From contig JARRLN010000002.1 of assembly GCA_037386965.1 (NCBI GenBank), positions 11,443-75,442 on the forward strand: a stretch of 64,000 nt of DNA, written 5' to 3'. The first letter of the stretch is position 1. Each line of letters starts with the position of its first letter. Shown one piece after another: positions 7,364 through 63,776 of this stretch. This DNA comes from Nitrospirota bacterium. GTDB lineage: Bacteria > Nitrospirota > Thermodesulfovibrionia > Thermodesulfovibrionales > JdFR-86. The notes under the pieces were generated by a model, which was not told the DNA's origin, made no database searches, and worked only from the letters and a program-made list of their open reading frames with translations. Both the position numbers and the translations under genes were made by a program.

Positions 7364-7447
7364 GCCCGCTCCCCCGGGAAAGGCCTCCGCGGCGGCGCCC
7401 CGGCGGAGCAGCCACCCCTTCCCCTTTTCCTTTGGCTCACCTCAAGC

Positions 7448-40360: not shown

Positions 40361-40365
40361 AATTC

Positions 40366-40890
40366 CTATACGGGCACCTTCTTCGAAATGCCTACCTTGT
40401 AGCGGACCCACTCGACCAGGAGAGTATGATTCTCGACCTTGTGGGGCATGGTGTCCAGGGGTCGCGGCGCCGGGCCGGCCAGCACGCGGCCGTCCTTGGC
40501 ATAAACGCTGCCGTGGCAGGGGCACTCGAAGTGTCCGGTCTTGGGGTCCCACTTGTAGTAGCACCCCATGTGGGGACAGATGGGCGAGAACGTGGTCACG
40601 CCCTCGGGATGCTTTATCACCCACACCCTGTGCTCGACCACCTCATGGTAGTACGCTTTCTTCTCCCGCACGTCGAAGTGCAGGTCCATTGGCTGGCCCA
40701 CGGGCAGGTTTTGAAGGTCGGTCACCTTCTCGAAGGGGTTCTTCTCGGCGGGCGGAGAGGTAAAAAGGTTCTTGACGAAAGGGACCCCCAGGAGAAGGCC
40801 GTTCAGGGCCCCCAGGGCTCCGAGGGTCCACTTGAGAAACCGCCTCCGCCCTTTCGGCACGTCCCGTTCTTCCGTCCTTGCAGGCTCCAT
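40366..40890 (-). CDS. Rieske 2Fe-2S subunit of a cytochrome bc-type complex (Tat signal)
   Basis: RRRFLKWTLGALGAL twin-arginine signal; CPHMGC ... CPCHGS Rieske boxes. ATG 40890 inside ORF 40366..40980. Confidence 0.85.
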   Translation of the reverse strand: MEPARTEERDVPKGRRRFLKWTLGALGALNGLLLGVPFVKNLFTSPPAEKNPFEKVTDLQNLPVGQPMDLHFDVREKKAYYHEVVEHRVWVIKHPEGVTTFSPICPHMGCYYKWDPKTGHFECPCHGSVYAKDGRVLAGPAPRPLDTMPHKVENHTLLVEWVRYKVGISKKVPV

Positions 40891-48463: not shown

Positions 48464-49180
48464 TTATACGAACCCCTCCCCTTCCCCGGCCGGGACGTCC
48501 TCCTCCCGCCCTTGAAGGGCGTCGAGCTCCAGGGGATGCTCCCGCCGCATGCGCTCCCTTGAAATGTAGCCCGTAAAGATGCTCTTGTCCAGGGGGAAGA
48601 CGTCGGGGCTGAAAATGGAGTTGTATCCGTGCCAGACCGCAACGAGGATGAAAATGAGCATGGCCGCGTTGCTGTGCAGGGCCTTGGCCACGGGTATGCC
48701 CTCTCCGGGCAGATAGTGGGTTGCCTGGATGGGGAACCAGAGCACAAATCCCGTCGCTATCATGACCACCGCCATGGTGACGATACCCCAGTACTCCAGC
48801 TTCTGCTGGTAGGTGTAGCGCCCGCAGCGGGCGGGCCTGTCCTCGGCGCCCACATAATATTTTATGTTCTGCACCGCGTCGCGGAAGTCCTTCCTGCTGA
48901 TGAGCATGGTGGGCTCCCACCTGAAGAGCGAAAGCCCCAGGGCTGCCGCCAGCACATGCACCGCCATCAGGGCGGCGTAGGAGGCCCCCACGTACCTGTG
49001 GATGAGCCTCACGTAATCTATGCCTCCCAGGGATTCGACGACCCACCGCGAGGCCTCCACGTAGTAAAACCTCTGCGCAAGCCCTGTCACCACGAGCACG
49101 ATGATGGCCACCATGTGCACCCAGTGCTCGCCCACCCGGTAGGGGCTGAACCTCCGCACCTTGTCTCCCCTGGTCTGCAT
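48464..49180 (-). CDS. Membrane dihaem cytochrome b, FdnI/HydC (PF01292-like) family
   Basis: MQTRGDKVRRFSPYRVGEHWVHMVAI..., four TM with conserved His (HWVH, LIHRY, ALHSN, VWHGY). ATG 49180 has RBS AAGGAGG. Confidence 0.75.
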   Translation of the reverse strand: MQTRGDKVRRFSPYRVGEHWVHMVAIIVLVVTGLAQRFYYVEASRWVVESLGGIDYVRLIHRYVGASYAALMAVHVLAAALGLSLFRWEPTMLISRKDFRDAVQNIKYYVGAEDRPARCGRYTYQQKLEYWGIVTMAVVMIATGFVLWFPIQATHYLPGEGIPVAKALHSNAAMLIFILVAVWHGYNSIFSPDVFPLDKSIFTGYISRERMRREHPLELDALQGREEDVPAGEGEGFV

Positions 49181-49190
49181 GGGCACCTCC

Positions 49191-50609
49191 TTATCGGTTC
49201 GAGACCACCCGCCACAGGTGAAGCAGTATCTGCAAGACAAGGCCGACCACCAGGACGGGAAGGAATATCTTGAAGGCCAGGTTCACGAGATAGACCCCGG
49301 GCGCATGGGAGAGGCTCGGCACGTAATGCGAGAGCCAGGCATCGGGGAAATCGCTGGTCGCTCCGGAGTGGCACTGCCGGCAGCTTTTCACCAGCCGCTC
49401 CTTCAGGACATTGGCGTCCGGCCCCGTGGTGCTGGTTATGTCGTGGTAGCCATGGCAGTCGGTGCAGACGGCCACCGGCCGCGAGGGCCCCTTCTGCTCC
49501 CTGTAAAAGGACAGCGTGACCCCGTGGAAGTCCGAGAGATAGGTCTTCAGGACCTCCGTGGAAAGGCCGTATTTCTTCACCACCGCGGGGTCGGCGTGGC
49601 AGTTGCTGCACATGTCGGGGACCTTCTCGTGCTCGGGCTTGTTGACGCTGTGTATCTGGTGGCAGTCCATGCAGACCGGCACGTCGGTGTTCTGCTCGTT
49701 GAAAAGCGCCGCGCCGTGCACGCTCCGGGCATAGGTCTTAAAGGTCTTCGGGTGGCAGCCCCGGCATTTCCAGGCGCTGGACACCCTGTCCCGTGCCGCA
49801 TGCCGCACCGCGTGGGAGCCGTGGCAGTCCACGCACACCGGGGACCCCAGCTTCCCTTCGCAGAGAGTGACGTAATGTATGCTCTTCAGGGTCTTCGCGT
49901 ATTTGTCGAAGTGGCACCTCCGGCAGGTCTCGGAGTTCGCTATGGTGAAATCCCTCCCGGAGGTGAAGCTTCGCTCCGGGTGGCTTTCGGCCGAGAAGCC
50001 GAAATGGCAGTCCGAGCACGAGAGGTTGCCGTGCACGGAGCCGTGGATGTCCTCAAGGCTCACCTCGAGGGAGACCGTCTGGGCGCCCACGGCCAGGGAC
50101 ATGTCCTTGTCGTGGCAGCCCATGCAGTACTGCTCCTCGCTTTCGAATTTCCTCCCCTGGGCCACCACCGTGATGCCATGGGCCCCGTGGCAGTCGGAGC
50201 AGAGGACCGGCTCGCCCGCCTCCTTTTCCCGGGCGATGAGGAGAGCGTGGGCGGGACTCTTCCGCAGCTCTTCTGCGGGATGGCACCGCCGGCAGACGCG
50301 GAGCGTCCGCGTCCTGAAGAGCCGCTCGCTCCTGAAGCTCCTGCGAGGGTGCACGCCCGGCCCGAAACCCTCGTGGCAGCCGCTGCAGCCCAGCTCGCGG
50401 TGCACCGATTTCCGGAAATCCTCGGCGCTGACGTGGGCCTCGCGCCTCCCGCCGTCGCCGAAGGTCATGACTATGCCCCGTTTCCCGTGGCACTGGAGGC
50501 AGCCCGTGACTTCCCTGGAGAGGTCGGCTGCCCGGGCCTCCGGGGCGAGAAACCCCAGAAGGGCCCCCTCTAAGAAAAGAAAAAACCCTATCCATGCGAA
50601 TGGCCCCAT
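49191..50609 (-). CDS. Multihaem cytochrome c, 13 CxxCH motifs, signal peptide and C-terminal TM anchor
   Basis: CxxCH motifs, in order: CLQCH, CSGCH, CRRCH, CSDCH, CMGCH, CSDCH, CRRCH, CVDCH, CRGCH, CMDCH, CSNCH, CTDCH, CRQCH. ATG 50609 inside ORF 49191..51443. Confidence 0.85.
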   Translation of the reverse strand: MGPFAWIGFFLFLEGALLGFLAPEARAADLSREVTGCLQCHGKRGIVMTFGDGGRREAHVSAEDFRKSVHRELGCSGCHEGFGPGVHPRRSFRSERLFRTRTLRVCRRCHPAEELRKSPAHALLIAREKEAGEPVLCSDCHGAHGITVVAQGRKFESEEQYCMGCHDKDMSLAVGAQTVSLEVSLEDIHGSVHGNLSCSDCHFGFSAESHPERSFTSGRDFTIANSETCRRCHFDKYAKTLKSIHYVTLCEGKLGSPVCVDCHGSHAVRHAARDRVSSAWKCRGCHPKTFKTYARSVHGAALFNEQNTDVPVCMDCHQIHSVNKPEHEKVPDMCSNCHADPAVVKKYGLSTEVLKTYLSDFHGVTLSFYREQKGPSRPVAVCTDCHGYHDITSTTGPDANVLKERLVKSCRQCHSGATSDFPDAWLSHYVPSLSHAPGVYLVNLAFKIFLPVLVVGLVLQILLHLWRVVSNR

Positions 50610-50728
50610 GGTCACCTTCCCCGGAATAACCCCCGGGGCCTCGGCGAGGCCCCGGGGGGCTTTCTCGTGGAGCCAGCAGGCCTCCCCCGGAGAAGCTTCG
50701 CGTGTCCTATCCTCCGGAGGAGCGGCAT

Positions 50729-51973
50729 TCAGTGGGCCTCCTTGTACTCCGGCTCTTCCCGGACGACGGGCATCCGGTTGACTATCCAGCGGAATATCAG
50801 TATGTGCAGCGTCAGCAGCGCACCCACGATGGCGACCTCCGTCCAGGGGGGCACGATGTGCTCGATATGGTGGGGCAGGTTCCAGTTGAAGGCAACGATG
50901 GAGACATTCAGCCGGTTGACGAGGATGCCCATGACGGCCCAGAAGGCCCCGAACCGCACCGCCAGGGCGCTTGCGGCCTTTACGCCGTAGGTCAGCACCA
51001 GGGCCGGTGCGAGGACGAACCCCAGTATCTCCAGGAGATACCAGTAGCCGTACGGCGTCAAAAGCGCGCCCCAGAGGTCCGCATGGGCCACGGCCACCAG
51101 CTTCATGGCGAAGTAGACATACATGGCCGCGACGGCGCCCTTGCCGAGCCCCAGGGTCAGCCTGTCCAGGTTGCCCCGGTAGGTCTCGTCCGTCGCACCC
51201 CTCAGATACCTGGCCACCAGGGTGCTGACCGCGATGACCATCGCGAGGGCGGCGTAGACACTGGATATCAGGAACAGTTGCGGGATGTAGGAGCTGTACC
51301 ACAGCGGGTGCAGCTTGCCCGGCGCAAGCAGGAACATCGCCCCCAGAGCCGACTGGTGCAGCGTGGAGAGGATGATGCCCGCGATGGTCATGGCTATGGT
51401 AATCCTGACCGCCCAGAGGCGGACCCTCCTGGCCCTGAGCCACTCAAGGATGGTGGTGCTGAACTCAAGGAACTGCACGGTCAGGTAGGTGGCGACATGC
51501 CAGGCCACCAGGAAAAGGACCGAGGCGGTGCCGAACTGCACCACCATGGGATAGTAGATGCGCCACGGCCTTCCCAGGTCCACCAGGAGGTACAGGACGG
51601 CGAACAGGTATCCCATGAACCCCGTCAGCACCCCCAGCCGCACCAGAGGCTTGTAGGCCTTGAACCCGAAAATGTAATACATGGTGGCCATGACGAAGCC
51701 CGTGGCCGAGAGGGGCACCCCTCCGAAGAGGCCCCATCCCAGCAGCAGCCCCCACGGGTACTCGTACGATGCGTGGGTCACGCTCTCCAGGCCGAAGAGG
51801 AACCGCACGGCGATGACCGGGAGGCCCACGGCCAGGACAGCGCCGGCCACGACGTTGAACGGCGTCACCAGGGAGCGCATGTACTCCGGCCAGGACATCC
51901 CCATGAGGAGCTTGCCCATGAACCAGGAGCGAAAGTCAGTCTTCTTCAGGGCGTATTCGGCCTCACCGTTCAT
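50729..51973 (-). CDS. NrfD/PsrC/HmcC-family integral membrane quinone-interacting subunit
   Basis: 414 aa, about 10 TM. The start overlaps the FeS-subunit stop (ATGA). Confidence 0.8.
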   Translation of the reverse strand: MNGEAEYALKKTDFRSWFMGKLLMGMSWPEYMRSLVTPFNVVAGAVLAVGLPVIAVRFLFGLESVTHASYEYPWGLLLGWGLFGGVPLSATGFVMATMYYIFGFKAYKPLVRLGVLTGFMGYLFAVLYLLVDLGRPWRIYYPMVVQFGTASVLFLVAWHVATYLTVQFLEFSTTILEWLRARRVRLWAVRITIAMTIAGIILSTLHQSALGAMFLLAPGKLHPLWYSSYIPQLFLISSVYAALAMVIAVSTLVARYLRGATDETYRGNLDRLTLGLGKGAVAAMYVYFAMKLVAVAHADLWGALLTPYGYWYLLEILGFVLAPALVLTYGVKAASALAVRFGAFWAVMGILVNRLNVSIVAFNWNLPHHIEHIVPPWTEVAIVGALLTLHILIFRWIVNRMPVVREEPEYKEAH

Positions 51974-52944
51974 TTTCTCACCTCCTCGCTGCCGGCCCCT
52001 TCCTTCTCCGTCTCGTGGTTCTCACGGTGGCGGACGGCGGCATACAGCATCCCGAAGAAGGCCGGCCATATCACGAAGACCGAGGGCACGGCCGCGAGGA
52101 ACCCCTTGGCGTAGGAAATGGGAGGTTGCATCGGGACGTCCTTCGGAAATCCGACCTGTTCGAAGGGAACGGGGGACAGGTACAGCCAGTTCAGGCCGCC
52201 GGCCTCTTTTTCTCCGTATATGTGGTCGACGTACGTATCCGGGCTCCGGAGAATTCTCTGCCGGGCCAGCTTCAGAAGGTCGTCGCGCCTGCCGAAGGTC
52301 ACCGCCCCCATGGGGCAGGCCGCCGCGCAGGCGGGCTTGAGCCCGTCCCTTATCCGGCCCAGGCACATTATGCACTTTTCCACCTTCGGCTCTAGGGCGC
52401 TCTCGTAATCATATGTGGGCACGTAGAAGGGGCAGGCGATCATGCAGTAGCGGCAGCCGAAGCAGAGGTCCTCGTTGTAGTGGACCGGACCCTCCGGGGT
52501 TTTGGTGTACGCATGAATGGGGCAGGCCGAGGCGCAGGCCGGCTCCATGCAGTGGTTGCACTGTATCTTTCTGTAAACAACCTTTCCCCCGGGCGTCTCG
52601 TAGCGGTTGACCACGGTATAGACCCCGGGGGTGGTCCTCCTCTCCTCGTCGAACACCGACGAGTCGGTGAAGGGCGTCTCGGGCTCCGGCAGGTCGTTGG
52701 CCTCGTTGCAGGCCTTCTCGCAGCTCCGGCAGCCCACGCAGAGGCTCAGGTCGGTGAGCATGCCGTAGCTTCCGGGGTAGCCGGTGAAGTTCTCCGAGCC
52801 CCCGGCCTTCTTCGGGTGTCCCAGAACGGCCGTTCCTCCGGCCAGGGCCATGGAGCCCAGGAAGGCCCGCCTGCTGAGGCCCCGGGAGCGGCCCTTTCCC
52901 TTGTCTTTCTTCATCCTTTTCTTTTCATCTGGTGTTTTTCCCAT
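51970..52944 (-). CDS. Tat-exported 4x[4Fe-4S] ferredoxin-like subunit (HybA/HmcB/PsrB-like) with C-terminal TM
   Basis: RSRGLSRRAFLGSMALAGG Tat signal. Clusters CVGCRSCEKAC, CNHCMEPACASACP, CFGCRYCMIACP and CIMC...CAAACP. Confidence 0.85.
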   Translation of the reverse strand: MGKTPDEKKRMKKDKGKGRSRGLSRRAFLGSMALAGGTAVLGHPKKAGGSENFTGYPGSYGMLTDLSLCVGCRSCEKACNEANDLPEPETPFTDSSVFDEERRTTPGVYTVVNRYETPGGKVVYRKIQCNHCMEPACASACPIHAYTKTPEGPVHYNEDLCFGCRYCMIACPFYVPTYDYESALEPKVEKCIMCLGRIRDGLKPACAAACPMGAVTFGRRDDLLKLARQRILRSPDTYVDHIYGEKEAGGLNWLYLSPVPFEQVGFPKDVPMQPPISYAKGFLAAVPSVFVIWPAFFGMLYAAVRHRENHETEKEGAGSEEVRK

Positions 52945-52963
52945 GAAACACCTCCGGCCTCCT

Positions 52964-53404
52964 CTACCGATGGGTACGGTTGTGGCACGTAAGGGCGCAG
53001 TTCTCGGGGGCTCCCAGCACGCCCATGTCCCGGTGACACGAGAAGCAAGCCCGGTGGTAGGCCACCTTCAGGGAAGGGACCTCCACCGACGCGCCCCCGG
53101 CCTTCCCGTGGCAGCTTCCACAGGGGAGGAAGGCCGCCTTGGCCGTCTGCCTGAACTGCTCCGGGGCAACGTCATGGCAGCCGTTGCAGGTGGATGCGGC
53201 CGTGGGGTGCGTGTGGTGGCACTTTGCGCACTCGCCGGCCAACATGACGTGCATGGGGTGGTCGAACCGCACCGCCTGATACCTGTCCACCAGGCTGTCC
53301 AGCACGATGGCCCCGGGGGGAGGTCCCCCCTGCCCGGCCCGGGCGAGCCAGGCGGGCAGGAGAACAACAGCCGCCAGAAACACTGTAGCCGTCATCTTCG
53401 CCAT
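52964..53404 (-). CDS. Small periplasmic multihaem cytochrome c (c3/c7-like; 4 CxxCH plus 1 CxxxCH)
   Basis: CAKCH, CNGCH, CGSCH, CFSCH and CALTCH. ATG 53404 with RBS AAGGAGG, inside ORF 52964..53449. Confidence 0.8.
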   Translation of the reverse strand: MAKMTATVFLAAVVLLPAWLARAGQGGPPPGAIVLDSLVDRYQAVRFDHPMHVMLAGECAKCHHTHPTAASTCNGCHDVAPEQFRQTAKAAFLPCGSCHGKAGGASVEVPSLKVAYHRACFSCHRDMGVLGAPENCALTCHNRTHR

Positions 53405-53414
53405 GGGACCCTCC

Positions 53415-53813
53415 TTAGCTCTCCCGTCCGCCCTTGCCCTCGCGGGCATTCTTCTTGCGGCCGGTGAAGTACGCCTCCACGGGGCTCCACCCGTAGGACG
53501 AGCCCGCGCCCAGGAGCCTGCCCAGGCCGTTGACGACCGCGATGGCGATGGCGGCGACGAAGGTCAGGGGCAGAAGGGTCACGTACAAAAGACCGATGAA
53601 GGGTGCGGACACCATCCGTCCGACGCTCCTCATGGTCTCCCGGTACCCGGTGGACCTGATGTACTGCGCATCCTCCCGGGTGGCCTGGGCCAGGCCCTGG
53701 AACGGACGCGGCTTGAGGAGTTCCCAGAGGAGAATAAACCCGGCTATTGCGCTGATGGCCAGGATATACTCCACCGCCTTGACGTGGGTGAGGAAATCAA
53801 ACAGGGTGTTCAT
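53415..53813 (-). CDS. Small 2-TM membrane protein, uncharacterised family (paralogue A)
   Basis: 132 aa with a GGAGG RBS. The C-terminal motif P-F-I-G-L-L-Y-V-x-L-L-P ... W-x3-EAY-F-T-GRKK is shared with 53904..54269. Confidence 0.6.
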   Translation of the reverse strand: MNTLFDFLTHVKAVEYILAISAIAGFILLWELLKPRPFQGLAQATREDAQYIRSTGYRETMRSVGRMVSAPFIGLLYVTLLPLTFVAAIAIAVVNGLGRLLGAGSSYGWSPVEAYFTGRKKNAREGKGGRES

Positions 53814-56578: not shown

Positions 56579-57114
56579 CCGCGTTCGTGCGGAATCCGGC
56601 CAGGCTCCGAATCGCGCACGACAACCTCTCCGTGGTCCAGGGAGATGTCCTCCATCCCGCCGAGGTCGAGGCGGCGGTGAAGGGCCGGGACGCGGTCCTC
56701 TCGGCACTGGGTTTAAGCAAGGGCTCTCCCAAGACCATCTGTGCCGACGGGACCGGGAACATAATCTCCGCCATGAAGAGGCACGGCGTGAAACGTCTCG
56801 TCGTTCAGTCCGCGTTCGGCGCCGGAGAGACGAGAAAGCGGGGGCTTTATGCGCGGCTCCTGTGGATTTTAATCGCCCCGAGGATGAAGGACAAGGAGGC
56901 GATGGAAGCAGCGGTAAGGGAGAGCGGACTGCAGTGGGTAATCGTTCGCCCGGTCAGGCTGACGGACGGTCCCGAAACGGGGTCGTACAGGACGGGAACG
57001 CGCCTGAAACCCGGCCCGTTTCCGAAGGTCTCCCGGGCCGATGTCGCCGATTTCATGCTGCGGCAGATGCAAAGCGACGAGTTTCTGCGCCAGGCGCCCA
57101 CCATAACTGGTTAA
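56575..57114 (+). pseudogene. NAD(P)H-binding (NmrA/atypical-SDR-like) protein lacking the N-terminal Rossmann glycine motif; truncated gene or remnant
   Basis: The homologous region begins at ...GHAVTAFVRNPARL. No GxxGxxG-encoding sequence lies in frame upstream. The only start is GTG 56575, overlapping the upstream stop (GTGA). Confidence 0.45.
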
Positions 57115-57212
57115 ACGCATCGTGCGGAACGGGGGCCACAATACAGACGAGCCTCGGACGCATGAGGCGGGGCGGGCGCCTGGCCCTGTTTGGAGAGTCG
57201 CGGGTTTCCCGC

Positions 57213-58031
57213 TCAGGGGCGCCGCTCCTGAGAGAGGGACAGGATGTAGTTGACGAGGTCCCAGAGGTCCCTCTCGTTTCCCTCGAAGAAGGCTTCATAC
57301 GAAGGCATCGGGGAGCCGTTCATGCCCGTCACCAGGGTCCTGTAGATATCCTCCGGGCGGTCGCCGTTTTTGAACGAAGCCGGCCTGGTCAGGTCCGCCG
57401 GGGCTATGAGGAATCCCCAGTCGTCCCTGAGCGTGGGCGCCGAACCGCCGTCTCCCCGCCCCCCGCCGCCGTGGCACGCGAAGCACTGCAATTTCTGGTA
57501 GACCTGGTATCCCCTCTGGGCGCTGGCGGGCGTCATGGGCTTGGGATATCCCACAATCGGGACAGGTTGTGGATTCGCGTTTTCAAAGCCCGGGAAGAAA
57601 CCTTTGACAAAGTAAATGATTTTCCAGCGGTCGGCCACGCCGAGCCCCGTGAAGGGAGGCATGAATCCCCGCACGCCAGCCGTCACCGTCCGAAACAGGT
57701 CTTCGTCCGTCGGGAGCTCTCCGCTCGGCGTGGACCGGAACTTGAACACCCCGTCGGCAAAGACGCGCGGGCGAGGGGCGAAATCCCGCGCGAGGTAGAC
57801 CGCAGCCGGGCCGTCGCCCTCTCCCTTGACCCCGTGGCACAGGGCGCAGGACCTGTCATACATGGCCTTGCCTTGGGCGCGCGTGGTTTCGTTTACGGGC
57901 GGCCTCTTCGAATACTGCGCCACCGGAATCGGCAGCTCCTGGGCTGCCTCCGTGCGGCCCGGAACCGCCAACAGGACGGAAAGCCCCGCCAAGGCTGCCG
58001 TAAGAATGGAAATGAGCTTTGTCCGTATCAT
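57213..58031 (-). CDS. Periplasmic dihaem cytochrome c, paralogous to the CcoP-like half of the fused CcoO-CcoP
   Basis: Signal peptide. CALCHGVKGEGDG and CFACHGGGGRGDG. FKFRSTPSGELPTDEDLFRTVTAGVRG matches FKFRSTPTGSLPLDTDLYRTITIGVRG at 8318..9658. Confidence 0.85.
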   Translation of the reverse strand: MIRTKLISILTAALAGLSVLLAVPGRTEAAQELPIPVAQYSKRPPVNETTRAQGKAMYDRSCALCHGVKGEGDGPAAVYLARDFAPRPRVFADGVFKFRSTPSGELPTDEDLFRTVTAGVRGFMPPFTGLGVADRWKIIYFVKGFFPGFENANPQPVPIVGYPKPMTPASAQRGYQVYQKLQCFACHGGGGRGDGGSAPTLRDDWGFLIAPADLTRPASFKNGDRPEDIYRTLVTGMNGSPMPSYEAFFEGNERDLWDLVNYILSLSQERRP

Positions 58032-58044
58032 GGCCTGTCCTCCG

Positions 58045-59535
58045 TTAAAACGCCATGTCGACGCCGACGGACGCGATGTATTGGAGGTTCCTCGCCGGGC
58101 TCTCCGCACTCCCGAGCCCGGGCGGCAGCTTCTTGGAGCCCGCAAGGTTGAAATGAGACCGCGCGTAAAGTCCGATGTTGGGCACCGGGTAGAACTTGGC
58201 CAGCACGCCCAGGAACGAGGCGTCTTGGTTCACCTTCGGCCCCCCCTGCTGAAGCGCGGGCGGCAGCTCCGCGAGGCCGCCGGGGTCCATGAAATCGTAC
58301 CGGGCGCCCAGGAGCCACTGGCGGTTCACCAGCCAGTCGGCCTCCACGCTGAGGCCGAAGGCGTCCTCGTCCCATTTGGAAAGGCTGCCCGGCGCGCCTG
58401 CAAACCGGACGTCGCCTATCCAGTCCCAGATGCCGGTGCCGTAGATGTCCAGGTACTTGTAGTGCCATCTTGCCGCGACGCCGAAGCGGTCCCAGTCCAC
58501 GGGCTCCGCATAGACGAAAGGCCCCGTCGCACTACCCGATGGATTAAGGGTGGGCCGGGCCGCGTCCTGGGCGTGGTAGTAGAACCCGGAGACCTGCACG
58601 TCGGAGAAAGGGCCCACGATGTCGTACCGGAGCATGCCGTAGATATCCCACCGGGTGTCCTGCGAGTCCTCGGCGGTGTCCCCCTGCGCCACGCCCACCT
58701 GGTAGAGGAAGGACGGGCCGAAGGGCCTCCCGTAGACCGTCGCCCCTTTGCTTGCGGGCACGTCGAACAGGAAGGGCTCGAAGGGGAGTATGGCGAACCC
58801 CTCGACCCCCTCCCTTGCCGGTCCGGTGGTCAGCCCGTACATCTTGCTTGAAAACGCGAAGGGAAGCATGGGGATGCGCTTTATTTCCGGGGGAAAAACA
58901 TCGGTCTCCGCATCGGGCGGTATGGGGTCCAGCTGCTGGCGGTGCGTGGGGAACGAGTAAAACGCCGACGGGTCGAAGTTTCCTATCTTGAAATTCGCAA
59001 GCTGGTAGCCGCCCAGGTTGTCGAATACGAGGAATACCCGCTCGAAGCCCAGGCCGCTTCCTTCCTCCTCGGCGTTGAACTCCCCCTCGATGAAGAAGCT
59101 GATGTTCCTGGCCGCCGTGCCGGCAAAGAAGAGGTTTATAATCTTGGGAAACACGACGTCGAAGTCCTCCTGCTTGTCGTCCTCGGTCTCCCTGAACCCG
59201 GCCTTTCTGACCTCGGCGCGCAGCCTCACGGCGGTAAAGTTGGTGACCTGGCCGAGGGTGGCGCCGCCCACGGGGCCGCCCAAAAGCTCCTTGAGCGTTC
59301 TGCCGCCCTCCTCGGTAGCGGGCATCTGGTAGCCGTTTTCCTGGAACCTCTGGCCGAAGGGGTTCAACCTGGGCTCCCGCGTATGGCAGGCGTTGCACGT
59401 CAGGTTGTACTTCCGGCCAAAGGCCGGTATGGCGTCGGCATCCCTCACGTCCAGCAGGCACAGGGACAACGAAAAGGCAGCCAGCAGAGAGGCAAACGCC
59501 ACCCACCCGCAAACCCCGGTGCGTGTCTTTTCCAT
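58045..59535 (-). CDS. Fused monohaem cytochrome c / outer-membrane beta-barrel protein (Cyc2-like architecture)
   Basis: Signal peptide, then FGRKYNLTCNACHTREPRLNPFGQRFQENGY (single CxxCH). About 430 aa of alternating, Gly/aromatic-rich sequence follows, ending ...ASVGVDMAF (terminal Phe). ATG 59535 with RBS GGGAGG. Confidence 0.7.
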   Translation of the reverse strand: MEKTRTGVCGWVAFASLLAAFSLSLCLLDVRDADAIPAFGRKYNLTCNACHTREPRLNPFGQRFQENGYQMPATEEGGRTLKELLGGPVGGATLGQVTNFTAVRLRAEVRKAGFRETEDDKQEDFDVVFPKIINLFFAGTAARNISFFIEGEFNAEEEGSGLGFERVFLVFDNLGGYQLANFKIGNFDPSAFYSFPTHRQQLDPIPPDAETDVFPPEIKRIPMLPFAFSSKMYGLTTGPAREGVEGFAILPFEPFLFDVPASKGATVYGRPFGPSFLYQVGVAQGDTAEDSQDTRWDIYGMLRYDIVGPFSDVQVSGFYYHAQDAARPTLNPSGSATGPFVYAEPVDWDRFGVAARWHYKYLDIYGTGIWDWIGDVRFAGAPGSLSKWDEDAFGLSVEADWLVNRQWLLGARYDFMDPGGLAELPPALQQGGPKVNQDASFLGVLAKFYPVPNIGLYARSHFNLAGSKKLPPGLGSAESPARNLQYIASVGVDMAF

Positions 59536-59624
59536 CGGCAAAACCTCCCGTTATCGGCGGACCAGAGTCCGTTTTCCGTGAAACCCGGGAAAATTCAAGC
59601 ACAGTCCGGCTGCATTTCATTTAC

Positions 59625-59650
59625 CTATCAAAGAACATGCAGGCTGTCAA
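59625..59650 (-). promoter_or_regulatory. Promoter-like element TTGACAGCC-N9-TTTGATAG, about 90 nt upstream of the porin-cytochrome gene
   Basis: Second copy of the element at 17738..17763, with identical fixed positions and spacing. Confidence 0.4.
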
Positions 59651-59755
59651 TAGAAAATTCCTTAACCCCGCATTGTTAAGCCCTGATTATCACACCCTTG
59701 GAAGCCCGACCGGAAGGCGGGGCGGCACGGCCGCCGGTCCCGGCTTGCCGGAAAC

Positions 59756-60247
59756 CTACTCGATTTTTCTGAACGACCTCTTCCGCGAGCCGCACACCGG
59801 ACACTTCCCGGGCGGGTCGCCCTCCACGGTTAATCCGCACACCTTGCAGATATGGTAGTCCGCTTCTTCGAGGGCCCCGATGTTCTCACGCGCCCTTTCA
59901 AGGAGGCGGGCAAAGACCTTTCCCGCCTCAAACGCGTAACAGAAGGATTTCGTGGCCCAGGTGTCAGCCGCCGCTATGGCGTCGTCCATCATGGGGAGAT
60001 ACATCTTCTGAAACTCCTCAATTTCAGCGAGTGCGGTCTTGAGGTTTTCCTCCGTGTCCCTTACGGCACCCCGTGCCCGCAGATGGTTCCTGGCGTGGAT
60101 GGCCTGGCTCTCTGCGGCGGCCCTGAAGAGCCTGGCCGCCTGCCTCCGGCCCTCCTTTTCCGCTTTCCATGCAAAGGCGAGGTATTTCCCGTTTGCCAGC
60201 GACTCTGCGGCAAGGGCATTATCGATGTCTTTTTCGAGCGCGGTCAT
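59756..60247 (-). CDS. Rubrerythrin-family protein (ferritin-like helical bundle plus C-terminal rubredoxin-like CxxC...CxxC)
   Basis: AAESLANGKY, AEIEEF, and C-terminal CKVCG...CPVCG. Some canonical di-iron E/H ligand positions appear substituted. Confidence 0.7.
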   Translation of the reverse strand: MTALEKDIDNALAAESLANGKYLAFAWKAEKEGRRQAARLFRAAAESQAIHARNHLRARGAVRDTEENLKTALAEIEEFQKMYLPMMDDAIAAADTWATKSFCYAFEAGKVFARLLERARENIGALEEADYHICKVCGLTVEGDPPGKCPVCGSRKRSFRKIE

Positions 60248-61287
60248 TATTCCTCCTCCGGCTTCTCCGTCCTATTCACGGCATCGCGCACCGCCCACAC
60301 GTGGAAATGAGCGCCCCGTTTCTGGCCCACGCCCACGGCCCCCTTTGTAAGGTACAGGGCCCAGGCCCAGTCCGGCTCGAACATGCTCGTCGTGGACGAC
60401 CAGTATGCCTCCCGCACGTCTTGGAAGGGATGTCCGGCAGGCAGGGCCGGGCTGTGGGTGCTGGCGTCCACAAGGGATTCCAGCTCGTTTATGTTGGGCA
60501 GCCGCCAGCCCGTCCCTTCTTTTCCGCTCCGGTTGAGCTCCTCCACGGCCCCGAGGGCCTCTTTCCAGGTGGCCTTGCCCCCCGAAAGGTCCGCCTCCTT
60601 GCGCCAGAAGAGGTGTGTGAGACGGTCATGCACCACGCCGCCCGAGACGGCAAACCGGGGCTCCGGCCATGCATGCCCCGTACGGAACTCTCCGTCCTGC
60701 CCGGAGCCCGCGCAGGCAATGACATCTCCACCCGCGTCATGGCATTCCCTCTGCCCGGTGGCGGGCAGGACGCCCCGGCCTTCGCCGCGCACCGGCCAGA
60801 GCAGAAAGAACTGCTCCTTTTGCCCGTAGAACATGCGGGCGCCCTCCATGTGTACGTACCACGCATAGGCAGTATTGATGGCAGCCGTCGTGGACGTCCA
60901 GTACCAGCCCAGGAAGACGTTTTCAAAAGGATGGCCCTCGGGAAGCGCGGGGTTCTTCGTCTTGTGGCTCATCAGGCTTCTCAGCTCGCGCCGGTTGGGG
61001 AGCCTCCAGTCGCCGCATCCGAAGGCCTTCTCGCGGTTCATCCTTGCGACGAAATCAAGCGCCTCCCTCCACGTGAGGGGGAACTCCGCAAGGTTGGCGT
61101 CCCGGGTCCAGACGAGGCCCGTCAGGCGGTCAAAGACCGCCTCCTCCCCGGGCTCGAACCTGGGCACGGGCCACGAAACGCCCCTTCTGAGCTCCGCATC
61201 CTGCCCGCTTCCCCGGCAGGGGACCTCCTGGCCCTGCGTATCGTGACACGTCTCCTGGCCCGTCCACAGGTAGCATCGGCCCTTCAT
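60247..61287 (-). CDS. Tandem DUF1566 (Lcl C-terminal-like) domain protein
   Basis: Two internal repeats, each C-x-D...C-x-GSGQD(A/G)E...W...PRF...WRLPN..EL.SL. No obvious signal peptide. Confidence 0.6.
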   Translation of the reverse strand: MKGRCYLWTGQETCHDTQGQEVPCRGSGQDAELRRGVSWPVPRFEPGEEAVFDRLTGLVWTRDANLAEFPLTWREALDFVARMNREKAFGCGDWRLPNRRELRSLMSHKTKNPALPEGHPFENVFLGWYWTSTTAAINTAYAWYVHMEGARMFYGQKEQFFLLWPVRGEGRGVLPATGQRECHDAGGDVIACAGSGQDGEFRTGHAWPEPRFAVSGGVVHDRLTHLFWRKEADLSGGKATWKEALGAVEELNRSGKEGTGWRLPNINELESLVDASTHSPALPAGHPFQDVREAYWSSTTSMFEPDWAWALYLTKGAVGVGQKRGAHFHVWAVRDAVNRTEKPEEE

Positions 61288-61352: not shown

Positions 61353-63776
61353 TCAAGAAAGTCCACGGTGCGGCGAGAATGCCTTTCTGAGCTCAAGCCA
61401 GCCGATGGCCGCAAGCGCTATCGCGAAAATGATGCCGAACTGGCTTACCGAAAGCGCGGCAAGCTTGAAATATGAGGCAAGCACCGGAACACTGGTCCCG
61501 GCAAACAGGAATATGAAGGCGGAAACGGCCCATGCGCCCATTACCCTGTTGGAAAGCAGGCCCAGTCTCCAGAGCGGCTCCTTTTCCGAACGGGAAACAA
61601 AAGCAAGAAGGACGTGGCCGATGATCCATCCGGAAAAGGCAAAAGTCTGCGTTTGGGCGAAGCTGAGATGCCGGGACAGCGCGTAGAGATAACAGACCGA
61701 TACCGCGGCAAAAAGCCCCAGCCCGGAGAGGCCGATTTTCTTGAGCAGCGCAGAGTCGAGGAACCTTTCCCGGGGGTTTCGCGGAGGACGGCTGTAAATC
61801 GTCCCTTCGGCCAGCTCGGCGACAAAGGCCGCCGAAGCCCCCAGGTCCATGAACAGCTCGAGCACGATAATCTGAATGGGGGCAAAGGGAAAAGGGACAC
61901 CCATGAGAACCGGCAGGAGGAAGGAAAGGACGAGAGCGAGCTTCGCCGAGAGATAGTAGGCCGTCCCCTTGCGCACGTTGTCGAAGAATTTGCGGCCCTC
62001 GAAAATGCCCCGCGCGATGGTGGTAAAGTTGTCGTCCGCCAAAACCGCGTCGGCCGCTTCCCTGGCGGCGTCCGTCCCCCGCTCTCCCATCGCGATGCCC
62101 ACGTCCGCAGCCTTGAGCGCGAGGGTGTCGTTGACACCGTCTCCCGTGACCTCGACGATTTCGCCGTTTCTCTGGAGGGCTTGCGCCAAGCGGTATTTGT
62201 GCTGCGGGCTGGTCCTTGCGAAAACGGAGGTTTCCTTCACCGCCTCGGACAATGCTTCATCCGAGAGCGCGTCCAGTTCGGCCCCGGTAAGGGCTTTCTC
62301 CCCGGGAATCCCCACGCTTCTAGCGATGAAGGAAGCGGTCGCGGGGTGGTCGCCCGTTACCATGACGATCCGTATGCCCGCCCGTTTTGCCGCCGCCACC
62401 GCCTCCCGTACGCCCGGCCGCGGCGGGTCTTCCAGGGAAACCAGGCCGACGAAGTCCATGTCGTGCTCCAATTGCAGGAGCGGCTCTCCGGATTCCGCCG
62501 GGGAGATAATTTTTCGAGCGACGGCGATTACTCTTCTTCCCTTCGCCGTTTCTTCCTTGAGCGCGGCCTCCGCCTTGCCATCAGGCACTTCTGTAAAGCG
62601 CAGGACCTCCTCCGGCGCGCCGCTCATGAACAGAATATGCTCTCCGTCCACTTCGCGGACAACCGCCCGCGTTTTCCTGCCGTCACCGAAGGCGCGCTCG
62701 CGGACTATGGCGCCTTCGGGCTGCGCTATCGCCAGCGCGGCGGCCCTCTTGCCCACCGCCCTATCGGTCGGCGAGAGGGAAAACTCGGTGAGGGCGAGCA
62801 GTGCCGCTTTCACGACGTCCTGCTCTCGGTCGCCCGGGGATACCGAGGCAACCTGCATTTCGTTTTCGGTAATCGTTCCCGTCTTGTCGGTGAGGATGAC
62901 CGTGGCGTTTCCCAGCACCTCCGCCGCCCGTATCTTTTTGACCAGGAACCCTCTTTGAGAGAGCTCATAGCTCCCCAGCCCCAGCACCATCGTAATGATG
63001 ATGGGCAACTCCTCGGGAATGGTCGCGAAGGCGAGCGCAAGGCCGGTCAAAACGCTCTGTCGAAAATCCGCGCCGCGCAAGAATCCCAGCACGGCTATCG
63101 CGACGCTTATAAAAAGAGCGATGACGAGCAGCCGTTTCGACAAAGCCTTCATCGCTACCTGAAGAGGCGTTTTGGGCTCCTTGATTTCTTCGGCAAGCAC
63201 CGCGATGTTGCCGAATCTGCTACGGGCCCCCGTGGCAAAGACTTCCGCCTTTCCTTCCCCGGAGACGACGAGCGTCCCGGCGTATACCTCGTCGCCCGCG
63301 TTCTTCTCACGGGAGAACGATTCGCCGGTGAGCACCGACTCGTCAACCTGAAGGCTGACCGCCGCGAAGAGCTTGCTGTCGGCTGCGATGCGCGCGCCGG
63401 GCGTCAAGACCAGAATATCGCCCGGCACTATGGCTTCAGTTTTTACCTCCGTGACGCTTCCGTCCCGGAATACCTTCGTCCGGGGTGCGGCGAGCTTCGC
63501 GAGCGATTCTATCGCCTTTTTCGCCCGGTACTCGTTCCAGACCTCGACGAAAACCAGCGCGACGATGATAATGAAGATGGTGAGCGCGTCCCCCAGGCTC
63601 CCCCAGATTGCGTAAAAAAAGCCAACGACCAGCAGGAGCAGGATGAGCGGCTCGGTTATTTCTTCTGCGGCAATGGAGAAAAAACTCAACCGCGCCGGCT
63701 TGCTTAACCGGTTCGGGCCGAACTCCTTGACTCTTCTCTGTGCTTCTGCAAAGGAAAGGCCGGTTTTTTCTTTCAT
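61353..63776 (-). CDS. Cation-transporting P-type ATPase (P2-like)
   Basis: 807 aa; TGES, DKTGTITENEM, IPEELP (TM4), VTGDGVNDTLALKAADVGIAMG, about 10 TM. Confidence 0.85.
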   Translation of the reverse strand: MKEKTGLSFAEAQRRVKEFGPNRLSKPARLSFFSIAAEEITEPLILLLLVVGFFYAIWGSLGDALTIFIIIVALVFVEVWNEYRAKKAIESLAKLAAPRTKVFRDGSVTEVKTEAIVPGDILVLTPGARIAADSKLFAAVSLQVDESVLTGESFSREKNAGDEVYAGTLVVSGEGKAEVFATGARSRFGNIAVLAEEIKEPKTPLQVAMKALSKRLLVIALFISVAIAVLGFLRGADFRQSVLTGLALAFATIPEELPIIITMVLGLGSYELSQRGFLVKKIRAAEVLGNATVILTDKTGTITENEMQVASVSPGDREQDVVKAALLALTEFSLSPTDRAVGKRAAALAIAQPEGAIVRERAFGDGRKTRAVVREVDGEHILFMSGAPEEVLRFTEVPDGKAEAALKEETAKGRRVIAVARKIISPAESGEPLLQLEHDMDFVGLVSLEDPPRPGVREAVAAAKRAGIRIVMVTGDHPATASFIARSVGIPGEKALTGAELDALSDEALSEAVKETSVFARTSPQHKYRLAQALQRNGEIVEVTGDGVNDTLALKAADVGIAMGERGTDAAREAADAVLADDNFTTIARGIFEGRKFFDNVRKGTAYYLSAKLALVLSFLLPVLMGVPFPFAPIQIIVLELFMDLGASAAFVAELAEGTIYSRPPRNPRERFLDSALLKKIGLSGLGLFAAVSVCYLYALSRHLSFAQTQTFAFSGWIIGHVLLAFVSRSEKEPLWRLGLLSNRVMGAWAVSAFIFLFAGTSVPVLASYFKLAALSVSQFGIIFAIALAAIGWLELRKAFSPHRGLS

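What the first reader, a model, noticed from the sequence alone, without database searches (positions are those of the whole stretch)
57213..59535. Monohaem cytochrome c fused to an outer-membrane beta-barrel (Cyc2-like), co-transcribed with a dihaem cytochrome paralogous to the oxidase's own CcoP-like domain
Gene 58045..59535 encodes a signal peptide and a single CxxCH within 30 residues of the mature N-terminus (FGRKYNLTCNACHTREPRLNPFGQRFQENGY). About 430 residues of Gly/aromatic-rich alternating sequence follow, ending in ...VGVDMAF; a terminal Phe is the usual outer-membrane beta-barrel signature. This is the architecture of Cyc2-type fused porin-cytochromes implicated in Fe(II) oxidation. 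Thirteen nt downstream is a periplasmic dihaem cytochrome c. Its sequence is strikingly similar to the C-terminal dihaem half of the fused CcoO-CcoP at 8318..9658, including the shared FKFRSTP.G.LP.D.DL.RT.T.GVRG block. This suggests a dedicated shuttle whose fold is matched to the oxidase's electron-entry domain.
Basis: partly seen in the sequence, partly recalled or inferred. Interest (0 to 1): 0.7.

Follow-up and report, generated by a model that had tools for sequence, protein, structure and literature searches.

The report
Cyc2-type porin-cytochrome with dedicated partners
This Nitrospirota genome encodes a member of the known Cyc2 family of outer-membrane "iron-oxidase" porin-cytochromes, and its partner proteins (a two-haem cytochrome, a blue-copper protein, a cbb3-type oxidase) are kept next to it in many other bacteria, which outlines a testable route for electrons from outside the cell to oxygen.

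Summary
Gene 58045..59535 (-) encodes a signal peptide, one invariant CxxCH inside the published Cyc2-specific motif, and a confidently predicted 16-strand porin ending in Phe. It is 48% identical to Tel_03480, the published Cyc2 homologue of Ca. Tenderia electrophaga. It is 34-40% identical to Nitrospira proteins of the kind a preprint assigns to Cyc2 Cluster 3. The porin-cytochrome is therefore a new member of a known family, not a new architecture.

A dihaem cytochrome c starts 13 nt downstream, after a GGAGGA ribosome-binding site. It is 48% identical (E 2e-66) to the dihaem tail of the fused CcoO at 8318..9658.

New here:
- The dihaem gene follows the cyc2 gene in 52 of 71 informative loci from several phyla, and it forms its own clade, separate from the oxidase-fused domains.
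- A third partner follows in 39 of 48 loci. It is a cupredoxin with invariant His/Cys/His/Met. In this window it sits behind ccoN-ccoO (7448..8188).
- In Ca. Kutchimonas all five genes form one same-strand cluster.

The likely function is uptake of electrons from Fe(II), or Mn(II) or minerals, and delivery to a divergent cbb3-type oxidase. That function is inferred, not shown. Interest is moderate.

The parts
58045..59535 (-). cyc2-like gene: fused monohaem cytochrome c and 16-strand outer-membrane porin (496 aa, stop codon included)
   Evidence: ORF. No Pfam or NCBIfam hit. More than 160 homologues, including Tel_03480 at 48% identity. AlphaFold2 model and porin fold matches.
59431..59535 (-). 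Signal peptide (residues 1-35, likely cleavage after ADA)
   Evidence: Read from the sequence. AlphaFold2 models a helix at residues 5-28. No dedicated signal-peptide predictor was available.
59320..59439 (-). Conserved Cyc2 haem-binding region, residues 33-72: ADAIPAFGRKYNLTCNACHTREPRLNPFGQRFQENGYQMP, with CxxCH at 59383..59397
   Evidence: Invariant C47, C50, H51, P55, L57, G61 and G68. Matches the published Cyc2 motif.
58048..59238 (-). Beta-barrel, residues 100-496: 16 strands, a long loop between strands 5 and 6 (residues 188-261, with FPTHRQQ invariant in the close subfamily), and a C-terminal Phe
   Evidence: DSSP on the AlphaFold2 model. Foldseek matches to 16-strand porins. Invariant columns.
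58032..58044 (-). 13-nt intergenic spacer CGGAGGACAGGCC with a GGAGGA ribosome-binding site for the dihaem gene
   Evidence: Sequence.
57213..58031 (-). Periplasmic dihaem cytochrome c (272 aa): signal peptide at residues 1-29, CxxCH at 57834..57848 and 57471..57485
   Evidence: Pfam PF13442 and PF00034, two domains each. Best solved relative is 6h5l_B (E 2e-51). Lies directly downstream of cyc2 in 52 of 71 loci.
59536..59755 (-). 220-nt upstream intergenic region between the rubrerythrin gene and cyc2; the presumed promoter region
   Evidence: ORF map. No sigma-70-like site was detected, so this is an inference only.
8318..9658 (-). Fused CcoO (FixO, monohaem) plus a C-terminal dihaem cytochrome c domain (residues 228-446, 8321..8977) that is paralogous to the cyc2-linked dihaem protein
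   Evidence: Pfam FixO plus two cytochrome c domains. NCBIfam PRK14486 at 181 bits, below its cut-off of 447. BLASTP 48% identity.
9655..10983 (-). CcoN-like catalytic subunit of a divergent C-family (cbb3-type) haem-copper oxidase
   Evidence: Pfam COX1. TIGR00780 ccoN at 216 bits, below its cut-off of 583.
7448..8188 (-). Protein X: secreted cupredoxin-like protein (putative type-1 Cu ligands H134, C171, H174, M177 at 7658..7789) with a C-terminal Ig-like CarboxypepD_reg domain. In other genomes it is the third gene of the cyc2 module.
   Evidence: Invariant ligands in 51 and 43 homologues. AlphaFold2 pLDDT 93. Foldseek matches to amicyanin, plastocyanin, pseudoazurin and AcoP. Follows cyc2-dihaem in 39 of 48 loci.

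Best explanation
Genes 58045..59535 and 57213..58031 form a two-gene operon. It encodes a Cyc2-family (Cluster 3-like) outer-membrane fused cytochrome-porin and its dedicated periplasmic dihaem cytochrome c.

Proposed mechanism:
1. A reduced extracellular donor gives one electron at a time to the single haem c, which is held at or inside the 16-strand barrel. The most likely donor is dissolved Fe(II); Mn(II), metal-sulfide surfaces or electrodes are possible.
2. The haem passes the electron to the soluble dihaem cytochrome in the periplasm.
3. That cytochrome delivers it to the divergent cbb3-type oxidase at 8318..10983. The blue-copper protein X (7448..8188) may act as an intermediate or a branch point. 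The CcoO subunit of the oxidase carries a homologous dihaem domain as its electron-entry module.
4. The oxidase reduces O2.

Shown here: the gene structure, family membership by motif and homology, the barrel fold, conservation of the haem site, the paralogy, and the conserved gene neighbourhood. Inferred: localisation, the direction of electron flow, the identity of the donor, and the order of the carriers.
For: Family identity:
- The Cyc2-specific motif and the PXL motif are present.
- CxxCH is invariant.
- The protein is 48% identical to Tel_03480. That gene is called the cyc2 homologue of an electrode-oxidising bacterium and is more highly expressed at the less favourable potential.
- A profile built from the family retrieves 3324 cluster representatives. 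Of the top hits examined (at least 365 aa long), all but one have a single N-terminal CxxCH, nearly all in the same motif context.

Fold:
- 16 strands, with best matches to 16-strand porins. This agrees with the published prediction for Cyc2.

Partnership:
- A 13-nt gap with an SD sequence separates the two genes.
- The dihaem homologue lies directly downstream on the same strand in 52 of 71 loci, spanning Nitrospira, other Nitrospirota, Gammaproteobacteria, Ca. Kutchimonas (named Gemmatimonadetes) and KSB1.
- The cyc2-linked dihaems form their own clade, which includes gene B.

Link to the oxidase:
- 48% identity to the CcoO-fused dihaem domain.
- Protein X sits behind ccoN-ccoO here but directly behind cyc2-dihaem in 39 of 48 other loci.
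- In Ca. Kutchimonas (L005) the order cyc2, dihaem, X, ccoN (55% identity), ccoO-dihaem (44% identity) lies on one strand within 6.2 kb.
- X is a cupredoxin with invariant His/Cys/His/Met.

Literature:
- Fe(II) oxidation has been measured for one Cyc2 from each of the three clusters.
- A Cluster 3 Cyc2 from a Nitrospirota (Thermodesulfovibrionia) oxidised Fe(II) when expressed in E. coli.
- cyc2 genes occur in Nitrospirae and Gammaproteobacteria of inactive sulfide chimneys.
Against: - No experiment bears on this protein itself.
- The literature calls Cluster 3 the least certain cluster functionally. Homologues with the same three-gene module occur in nitrite-oxidising Nitrospira, which are not known to oxidise iron.
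- Cluster assignment was not tested with the FeGenie HMMs or the reference tree.
- The haem region (residues 31-97) is modelled with pLDDT below 50, so the position of the haem relative to the barrel is unknown.
- No distal haem ligand is conserved across the superfamily. H198 and M416 are invariant only in the close subfamily.
- In this genome the oxidase and X lie about 48 kb from cyc2, so coupling is inferred from other genomes.
- The Tenderia-like subclade lacks the adjacent dihaem gene.
- The oxidase subunits score below the NCBIfam equivalog cut-offs.
Confidence: 0.6

Rival explanations
1. The proteins are the same but the purpose differs. The conduit would not conserve energy. It would dispose of electrons or detoxify: oxidising Fe(II) or Cu(I) at the cell surface to protect the periplasm, or running outward to an extracellular acceptor.
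For: - In several Tenderia-like loci (L020, L022, L029) cyc2 sits next to a two-component response regulator and sensor-kinase pair and a 586-aa protein with a Tat-like signal. I read these as cusRS-like and multicopper-oxidase-like from their N-terminal sequences only; no family search was run.
- In the window cyc2 is flanked by a rubrerythrin, a P-type cation ATPase and an outer-membrane efflux protein.
- Nitrite-oxidising Nitrospira carry the module without any known iron-based energy metabolism.
- A monohaem conduit has no built-in direction.
Against: - The module is physically joined to a terminal oxidase operon in Ca. Kutchimonas and to CcoN-like genes in gammaproteobacterial loci. That fits respiration better than detoxification.
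- In Tenderia, expression responds to electrode potential as expected for electron uptake.
- Measured activities of Cyc2 proteins are Fe(II) oxidation.
Confidence: 0.15
2. The conduit is an Mn(II) oxidase, as proposed for Cyc2 of the Nitrospirota Ca. Manganitrophus noduliformans.
For: Cyc2 is one of the conserved candidates for Mn(II) lithotrophy in Ca. Manganitrophaceae, and that Cyc2 also falls in Cluster 3. The window's organism belongs to the same phylum.
Against: - Mn(II) oxidation by any Cyc2 has not been demonstrated; it is only hypothesised.
- Per the cited preprint, the Nitrospira Cyc2s do not cluster with the Manganitrophus sequence.
- No Manganitrophus locus appeared among the 80 closest genome loci.
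- The PCC_1 and TO_2 complexes thought to be specific to Mn lithotrophy were not looked for here.
Confidence: 0.1
3. The adjacency means little. The dihaem protein would be a general soluble electron donor for the cbb3-type oxidase (a free CcoP-like module), and the porin-cytochrome would work independently.
For: The dihaem protein is 48% identical to the oxidase's own dihaem domain. The Tenderia-like Cyc2 genes stand alone.
Against: - Same-strand adjacency holds in 52 of 71 loci across phyla, including Nitrospira loci where no CcoN-like gene was found within 5 kb.
- The cyc2-linked dihaems form a clade separate from the oxidase-fused domains, with gene B grouping beside the dihaems of its closest cyc2 relatives.
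- The 13-nt spacing with an SD sequence suggests co-translation.
Confidence: 0.05

Closest known systems
Cyc2 fused cytochrome-porins (McAllister 2020 and Keffer 2021, three clusters), in particular Cluster 3 and the Ca. Tenderia electrophaga homologue Tel_03480
   Same: - Signal peptide, a single N-terminal CxxCH within AXPXFAR[Q/K][T/Y]...CXXCH...PXL, a 16-strand porin, a length above 365 aa and a C-terminal Phe.
- 48% identity to Tel_03480 over 95% of the length.
- 34-40% identity to Nitrospira proteins of the kind a preprint assigns to Cluster 3.
   Different: - One motif substitution (FGRKY instead of FARKY).
- Longer than typical Cluster 1 proteins; the distant profile hits are mostly about 400-440 aa.
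- A subfamily-specific invariant FPTHRQQ loop.
- Cluster assignment was not tested directly, and function is unverified for this branch.
rus operon of Acidithiobacillus ferrooxidans (cyc2-cyc1-cup-coxBACD-rus)
   Same: The logic of the gene set is the same: an outer-membrane Cyc2, a periplasmic dihaem cytochrome c, a cupredoxin and a haem-copper oxidase, encoded together. This holds fully in Ca. Kutchimonas L005 and is split over two loci here. AcoP, the cup product, is among the structural matches of protein X.
   Different: - The carriers are not orthologues. The dihaem protein shows no detectable c4/Cyc1 relationship; its best solved relative is 6h5l_B.
- The cupredoxin is amicyanin-like with an added Ig-like domain, not rusticyanin.
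- The oxidase is C-family (cbb3-type) with a CcoO-dihaem fusion, not aa3.
Leptospirillum Cyt572 to Cyt579 to cbb3 chain (Nitrospirota)
   Same: Same phylum. A Cluster 3 outer-membrane cytochrome passes electrons through a periplasmic c-type cytochrome to a cbb3 oxidase. The haem domains of gene B and of the CcoO fusion give weak hits to the NCBIfam cytochrome 579 model (E 1.9e-9 and 4.2e-13).
   Different: The Cyt579 hits are far below the model cut-off (37 and 49 bits against 280) and may reflect only the generic class I fold. Here the carrier is dihaem and the setting is not that of the acidophilic Leptospirillum.
Dihaem cytochrome c in PDB 6H5L chain B. To my knowledge this is Kustc0457, the partner of the HAO-like Kustc0458 of Kuenenia stuttgartiensis.
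   Same: Closest solved homologue of gene B (E 2.2e-51, aligned over residues 51-269). It includes the FKFR(S/T)TPSG.LPTDED block and both haem sites. It serves as an electron-transfer subunit docked on a redox enzyme.
   Different: Its partner is an octahaem nitrite reductase in an anammox bacterium, not a porin-cytochrome or an oxidase. The mapping of 6H5L chain B to Kustc0457 rests on my memory; the database title reads only 'Conserved hypothetical cytochrome protein'.

Membership tests
Cyc2 fused cytochrome-porin (criteria of Keffer 2021 and FeGenie) | N-terminal signal peptide | tested here: met
   Residues 1-35 have a charged n-region, a hydrophobic core and an ADA|I site. AlphaFold2 models a helix at residues 5-28. 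Judged by inspection; SignalP was not available.
Cyc2 fused cytochrome-porin (criteria of Keffer 2021 and FeGenie) | Exactly one CXXCH, close to the N-terminus | tested here: met
   A single CNACH at residues 47-51. It is invariant in 63 close and 96 distant homologues.
Cyc2 fused cytochrome-porin (criteria of Keffer 2021 and FeGenie) | Cyc2-unique AXPXFAR[Q/K][T/Y] motif upstream of CXXCH, and PXL four residues downstream | tested here: met
   AIPAFGRKY-NLT-CNACH-TRE-PRL. There is one conservative deviation (A to G). The family consensus is AVPAFARKY.
Cyc2 fused cytochrome-porin (criteria of Keffer 2021 and FeGenie) | Length of at least 365 aa with a fused 16-strand porin | tested here: met
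   496 aa. There are 16 long strands at residues 100-496 (pLDDT mostly 80-96). Foldseek top hits are 16-strand porins at E about 1e-11.
Cyc2 fused cytochrome-porin (criteria of Keffer 2021 and FeGenie) | Sequence homology to accepted members | tested here: met
   48% identity to Tel_03480 (P0100, E 5e-134). Eddie 2017 name it the cyc2 homologue, and McAllister 2020 label Tenderia electrophaga in their Cyc2 tree.
Cyc2 fused cytochrome-porin (criteria of Keffer 2021 and FeGenie) | Score above the FeGenie Cyc2 HMM cut-off, and placement in Cluster 1, 2 or 3 of the reference tree | not testable with these tools
   The HMMs and the 1,593-sequence alignment are not available here. Cluster 3 is inferred from similarity to Nitrospira homologues.
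Cyc2 fused cytochrome-porin (criteria of Keffer 2021 and FeGenie) | Outer-membrane location, covalently bound haem and Fe(II)-oxidising activity | not testable with these tools
   Requires fractionation, haem staining and kinetic assays.
Cyc1 / cytochrome c4 (the periplasmic partner in the A. ferrooxidans and Mariprofundus models) | Detectable homology of the dihaem protein to c4-type cytochromes | tested here: not met
   No c4 model or c4 structure appeared among the NCBIfam or PDB hits. The best PDB hit is 6h5l_B. Gene B works like Cyc1 but is not a member of that family.
CcoP (cbb3 oxidase subunit III) | Score above the TIGR00782 cut-off | tested here: not met
   TIGR00782 scores 43.6 bits against a cut-off of 179.95. 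Gene B has a cleavable-looking signal peptide and no further hydrophobic segment.
C-family (cbb3-type) haem-copper oxidase, for 8318..10983 | CcoN and CcoO (FixO) subunits | tested here: inconclusive
   Pfam COX1 and FixO match clearly. The NCBIfam equivalog scores are below their cut-offs (216 against 583, and 126 against 201). This is a divergent member. The catalytic ligands were not inspected.
Type-1 (blue) copper cupredoxin, for protein X at 7448..8188 | Cupredoxin fold with the His...Cys-x2-His-x2-Met ligand set | tested here: met
   H134, C171, H174 and M177 are invariant. AlphaFold2 pLDDT is 93. Top fold matches are a purple cupredoxin, amicyanin, pseudoazurin and plastocyanin. Copper binding itself is not testable here.

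The most novel reading that the evidence does not exclude
cyc2-dihaem-cupredoxin would be a self-contained, horizontally shared cassette for taking up extracellular electrons. Its dihaem carrier would be structurally matched to a dihaem docking domain fused to CcoO of a divergent cbb3-type oxidase. Because the same cassette is present, often in two or three copies, in canonical nitrite-oxidising Nitrospira, those organisms and marine sediment Gammaproteobacteria, Ca. Kutchimonas and KSB1 could draw on Fe(II), Mn(II) or mineral electrons. That would be a widespread, unrecognised lithotrophic capacity.
Probability: 0.25. Interest if true: 0.75.

Novelty: new variant of a known kind. Interest (0 to 1): 0.45.

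Why it matters
Cyc2 is the most widely used marker gene for microbial iron oxidation. Two things about it are poorly known: how electrons travel from it to the respiratory chain at neutral pH, and what Cluster 3 proteins do. The literature read here calls Cluster 3 the most uncertain cluster.

This locus, read together with about 50 related loci, gives a concrete and conserved candidate set of periplasmic carriers for one Cluster 3-like branch. These are a Kustc0457-like dihaem cytochrome and an amicyanin-like cupredoxin. A physical link to a fused-CcoO oxidase appears in at least one genome.

That turns a vague pathway model into pairwise electron-transfer experiments that can be done with recombinant proteins. 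It also sharpens the question of why nitrite-oxidising Nitrospira keep this module.

The porin-cytochrome itself is not new. It would be recognised by existing tools, and its relatives in marine Nitrospirota and Gammaproteobacteria have been reported.

Tried and rejected
- Pfam and NCBIfam gave no hit for the porin-cytochrome. A profile search against PDB sequences also found nothing meaningful. Family assignment therefore rests on the motif, on homology and on the literature.
- Two look-ups of cluster members failed to name the distant profile hits, for example as Mariprofundus, Gallionella or Leptospirillum Cyc2. No direct comparison with a biochemically characterised Cyc2 sequence was possible.
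- I looked for a conserved distal haem ligand. H198 and M416 are invariant in the close subfamily but not in the superfamily, so no ligand is proposed.
- The idea that gene B is a recent in-genome duplicate of the CcoO-fused domain was rejected. In the neighbour-joining tree it groups with cyc2-linked dihaems of other phyla, and the window's fused domain groups with the Kutchimonas fused domain. That tree had no bootstrap support.
- Promoter and terminator scans of 57000..59900 found nothing, which is uninformative for this GC-rich organism.
Barrel closure, pore size and haem placement could not be measured.
Full report
**1. Observation**

The minus strand of the window carries a 496-aa ORF at 58045..59535 with GC3 of 0.85. 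Its product starts with a typical signal peptide, MEKTRTGVCGWVAFASLLAAFSLSLCLLDVRDADA|IP. It has one CxxCH (CNACH, residues 47-51), about 11 residues after the likely cleavage site, and it ends in VGVDMAF. The stop codon is followed by CGGAGGACAGGCC, 13 nt that contain a GGAGGA ribosome-binding site, and then by the ATG of a 272-aa protein at 57213..58031. That protein has a signal peptide and two CxxCH motifs, and it matches two class I cytochrome c domains.

This dihaem protein is 48% identical over 225 residues (E 2e-66) to residues 228-446 of the protein at 8318..9658. The latter has an N-terminal FixO/CcoO domain and three CxxCH motifs in all. Every factual statement in the finding is therefore correct. 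Only co-transcription remains an inference, since the scans for sigma-70-like promoters and intrinsic terminators found nothing.

**2. What the porin-cytochrome is**

Neither Pfam nor NCBIfam recognises the protein. The large protein collection does: it holds an identical protein from a Nitrospirota MAG (P8Y39_00730) and more than 160 full-length relatives at 45-72% identity. Nearly all are annotated 'hypothetical'. They come from Gammaproteobacteria (including Woeseia), a MAG named Gemmatimonadetes, and other sources. One of them, at 48% identity, is Tel_03480 of Ca. Tenderia electrophaga. Eddie et al. 2017 call this gene the cyc2 homologue of that electrode-oxidising bacterium and report higher expression at the less favourable potential. 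McAllister et al. 2020 label Tenderia electrophaga in their Cyc2 tree.

Keffer et al. 2021 define Cyc2 by these features:
- a signal peptide;
- a single CXXCH;
- a motif they call unique to Cyc2, AXPXFAR[Q/K][T/Y], upstream of the haem site;
- a PXL motif four residues downstream;
- a length of at least 365 aa;
- a 16-strand porin.

The window protein reads AIPAFGRKY-NLT-CNACH-TRE-PRL, a match with one A-to-G change. The consensus of its 63 closest relatives is AVPAFARKY. C47, C50, H51 and F496 are invariant in that set. C47, C50 and H51 are also invariant in a 96-sequence alignment that includes distant relatives.

AlphaFold2 with the 63-sequence alignment gives pLDDT 77.7 and pTM 0.77. It places sixteen long strands between residues 100 and 496, with a long loop (188-261) between strands 5 and 6. 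The haem region (31-97) is modelled with pLDDT below 50. Foldseek against the PDB returns 16-strand general porins as best matches: OmpM1, OmpF/OmpC/PhoE-type porins and Omp32. E-values are about 1e-11, and TM-scores are 0.6-0.68 when normalised to the target.

A profile of the family retrieves 3324 cluster representatives at E of 0.001 or better from 1.8 billion proteins. I examined the top hits of at least 365 aa. All but one have one CxxCH near the N-terminus, nearly all in the same motif context, and most end in Phe. The protein is therefore a member of the Cyc2 family.

The cluster was not tested directly, because the FeGenie HMMs and the reference alignment are not available here. However, the protein is 34-40% identical over its full length to many Nitrospira proteins. 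A 2024 preprint assigns all Nitrospira Cyc2s to Cluster 3, both by tree and by FeGenie.

**3. The partner proteins**

A scan of one genome per species returned 80 loci. In 71 of them at least 800 bp follow the cyc2 homologue. In 52 of those a homologue of the dihaem protein lies directly downstream on the same strand. These loci come from many Nitrospira genomes including Ca. N. defluvii, other Nitrospirota, Woeseia and other Gammaproteobacteria, Ca. Kutchimonas denitrificans, and KSB1. The 19 exceptions are mostly Tenderia-like Gammaproteobacteria, where cyc2 stands alone.

In a neighbour-joining tree of the dihaem domains, the cyc2-linked proteins form one group that includes the window's gene B. 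The window's CcoO-fused domain instead groups with the CcoO-fused domain of Ca. Kutchimonas and with second paralogues found further downstream in some gammaproteobacterial loci (no bootstrap was done). Gene B is the orthologue of a lineage that travels with cyc2.

Gene B is not a c4/Cyc1-type cytochrome by sequence. Its closest solved relative is chain B of 6H5L (E 2e-51). To my knowledge this is the dihaem partner Kustc0457 of an HAO-like enzyme of Kuenenia stuttgartiensis; describes that complex, but the link to the PDB code is from memory.

**4. A third partner and the link to the oxidase**

The 246-aa protein at 7448..8188 lies 129 nt downstream of the CcoO fusion on the same strand. It has homologues directly behind cyc2-dihaem in 39 of 48 informative loci, and within 5 kb upstream of cyc2 in six more. 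Pfam sees only its C-terminal Ig-like CarboxypepD_reg domain.

Two independent alignments, of 51 and 43 homologues, keep H134, C171, H174 and M177 invariant, in a Cys-x2-His-x2-Met arrangement. The AlphaFold2 model has pLDDT 93. Its best structural matches are the Nitrosopumilus purple cupredoxin, amicyanin, pseudoazurin, plastocyanin and, lower in the list, AcoP of A. ferrooxidans. Some JGI records already name homologues 'plastocyanin'. The protein is therefore very probably a type-1 copper protein.

In Ca. Kutchimonas (L005) five genes lie on one strand within 6.2 kb:

| Gene | Position in L005 | Identity to window protein |
|---|---|---|
| cyc2 | 5001-6383 | 61% |
| dihaem | 6486-7208 | 59% |
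| cupredoxin X | 7457-8113 | 32% |
| ccoN | 8318-9625 | 55% |
| ccoO-dihaem fusion | 9701-11197 | 44% |

. In L007, L009 and L031 the order is cyc2, dihaem, cupredoxin, a second dihaem, then a CcoN-like gene.

In the window the same parts are split between two loci: cyc2-dihaem at 57-59.5 kb and ccoN-ccoO/dihaem-cupredoxin at 7.4-11 kb. The latter lies next to a copper-type P1B ATPase. The oxidase subunits match the cbb3 models clearly but below the equivalog cut-offs, so this is a divergent C-family enzyme.

**5. Mechanism**

The best-supported reading is a short electron-uptake chain:
1. An extracellular reductant reduces the single haem of the porin-cytochrome.
2. The periplasmic dihaem cytochrome accepts the electron.
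3. The cupredoxin may take part.
4. The dihaem domain fused to CcoO receives the electron.
5. CcoN reduces O2.

This parallels two published models. One is the rus operon of A. ferrooxidans, cyc2-cyc1-cup-coxBACD-rus. The other is the Leptospirillum chain from Cyt572 through Cyt579 to cbb3. The carriers here are not orthologous to those.

The donor is unknown. Fe(II) is favoured because Fe(II) oxidation has been measured for one Cyc2 of each cluster. It has also been reported recently for a Cluster 3 Cyc2 of a Nitrospirota expressed in E. coli. In addition, relatives occur in Nitrospirae and Gammaproteobacteria of inactive sulfide chimneys, where one is abundant in the metaproteome. Mn(II) remains possible, as proposed for Ca. 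Manganitrophus, as do solid donors, as in Tenderia.

Localisation, direction of flow, donor and carrier order are all inferences. The presence of the module in nitrite-oxidising Nitrospira, and the literature's caution about Cluster 3, limit confidence in the functional claim to about 0.6. Family membership itself is close to certain.

**6. Novelty and verdict**

The porin-cytochrome is a new member of a known family, and existing tools would flag it. In the papers I could search I did not find a description of three things: the conserved cyc2-dihaem-cupredoxin module of this branch, its distinct non-c4 dihaem carrier, and its linkage to an oxidase whose CcoO carries the paralogous dihaem domain. 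That search was limited, so this is a cautious claim.

I rate the whole as a new variant of a known kind of system, with moderate interest (0.45). It would not greatly surprise a specialist. It does make the periplasmic leg of the Cyc2 pathway, and the puzzle of Cyc2 in Nitrospira, directly testable.

Noticed in passing
window 48464..53449 (-): A respiratory-looking cluster about 4 kb from the cyc2 operon. In order it encodes a tetrahaem c7/c3-like cytochrome (52964..53449), a Tat-signal 4Fe-4S protein (51970..52944), an NrfD-like membrane protein (50729..51973), a multihaem cytochrome ORF with 13 CxxCH (49191..51443) and a cytochrome b561-like protein (48464..49240). The long multihaem ORF overlaps the NrfD gene, so its true start is probably near 50720. 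The cluster could connect periplasmic cytochromes to the quinone pool.
   Followed up: partly
window 38126..40624 (-): An 832-aa fusion of cytochrome b (N- and C-terminal domains) with a dihaem cytochrome c, as in a bc-type complex. A weak hit of the CcoO-fusion's dihaem domain falls here (23% identity, E 0.001).
   Followed up: no
L002 8143..8300 (NCBI GCA_037386885.1), compared with L001 and window 57241..57392: The NCBI MAG assembly lacks about 150 bp near the 3' end of the dihaem gene and has a 40-bp inverted piece there, so its called product is 218 aa instead of 272 aa. The JGI and Logan contigs agree with the window. This is probably an assembly artefact.
   Followed up: partly
L020, L022, L029 (Tenderia-like gammaproteobacterial loci), about 6600..10800: Here cyc2 stands alone. 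It is followed on the opposite strand by a response regulator and sensor-kinase pair, and then by a 586-aa protein with a Tat-like signal. I read these as cusRS-like and multicopper-oxidase-like from their N-terminal sequences only. This hints at a metal-homeostasis context for that subclade.
   Followed up: no
L067 and L078 (same contig CBDFIV010000015.1); L052 and L082 (OZ244988.1); L047, L049 and L065 (MAG OFTM76): Several Nitrospirales genomes carry two or three copies of the cyc2-dihaem(-cupredoxin) module. In two genomes the copies lie only about 8 kb apart and in opposite orientation.
   Followed up: no
window 57213..58031 and 8318..9658: Single haem domains of both dihaem sequences give weak hits to the NCBIfam model for Leptospirillum cytochrome 579 (E 1.9e-9 and 4.2e-13, far below the cut-off). 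Cytochrome 579 is the periplasmic acceptor of the Cluster 3 protein Cyt572.
   Followed up: no
window 59756..61287 (-) and 61353..63776 (-): Directly upstream of cyc2, on the same strand, lie a rubrerythrin (163 aa), a protein with two Lcl_C domains (346 aa) and a P-type cation ATPase (807 aa). The rubrerythrin suggests exposure to oxygen or peroxide.
   Followed up: no
window 58753..58974 (residues 188-261 of the porin-cytochrome): The long loop between strands 5 and 6 is the best-conserved part of the barrel in the close subfamily: FPTHRQQ is invariant, along with several Pro residues. The motif is not conserved in the wider Cyc2 superfamily. It may line the pore or contact the haem peptide.
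   Followed up: partly
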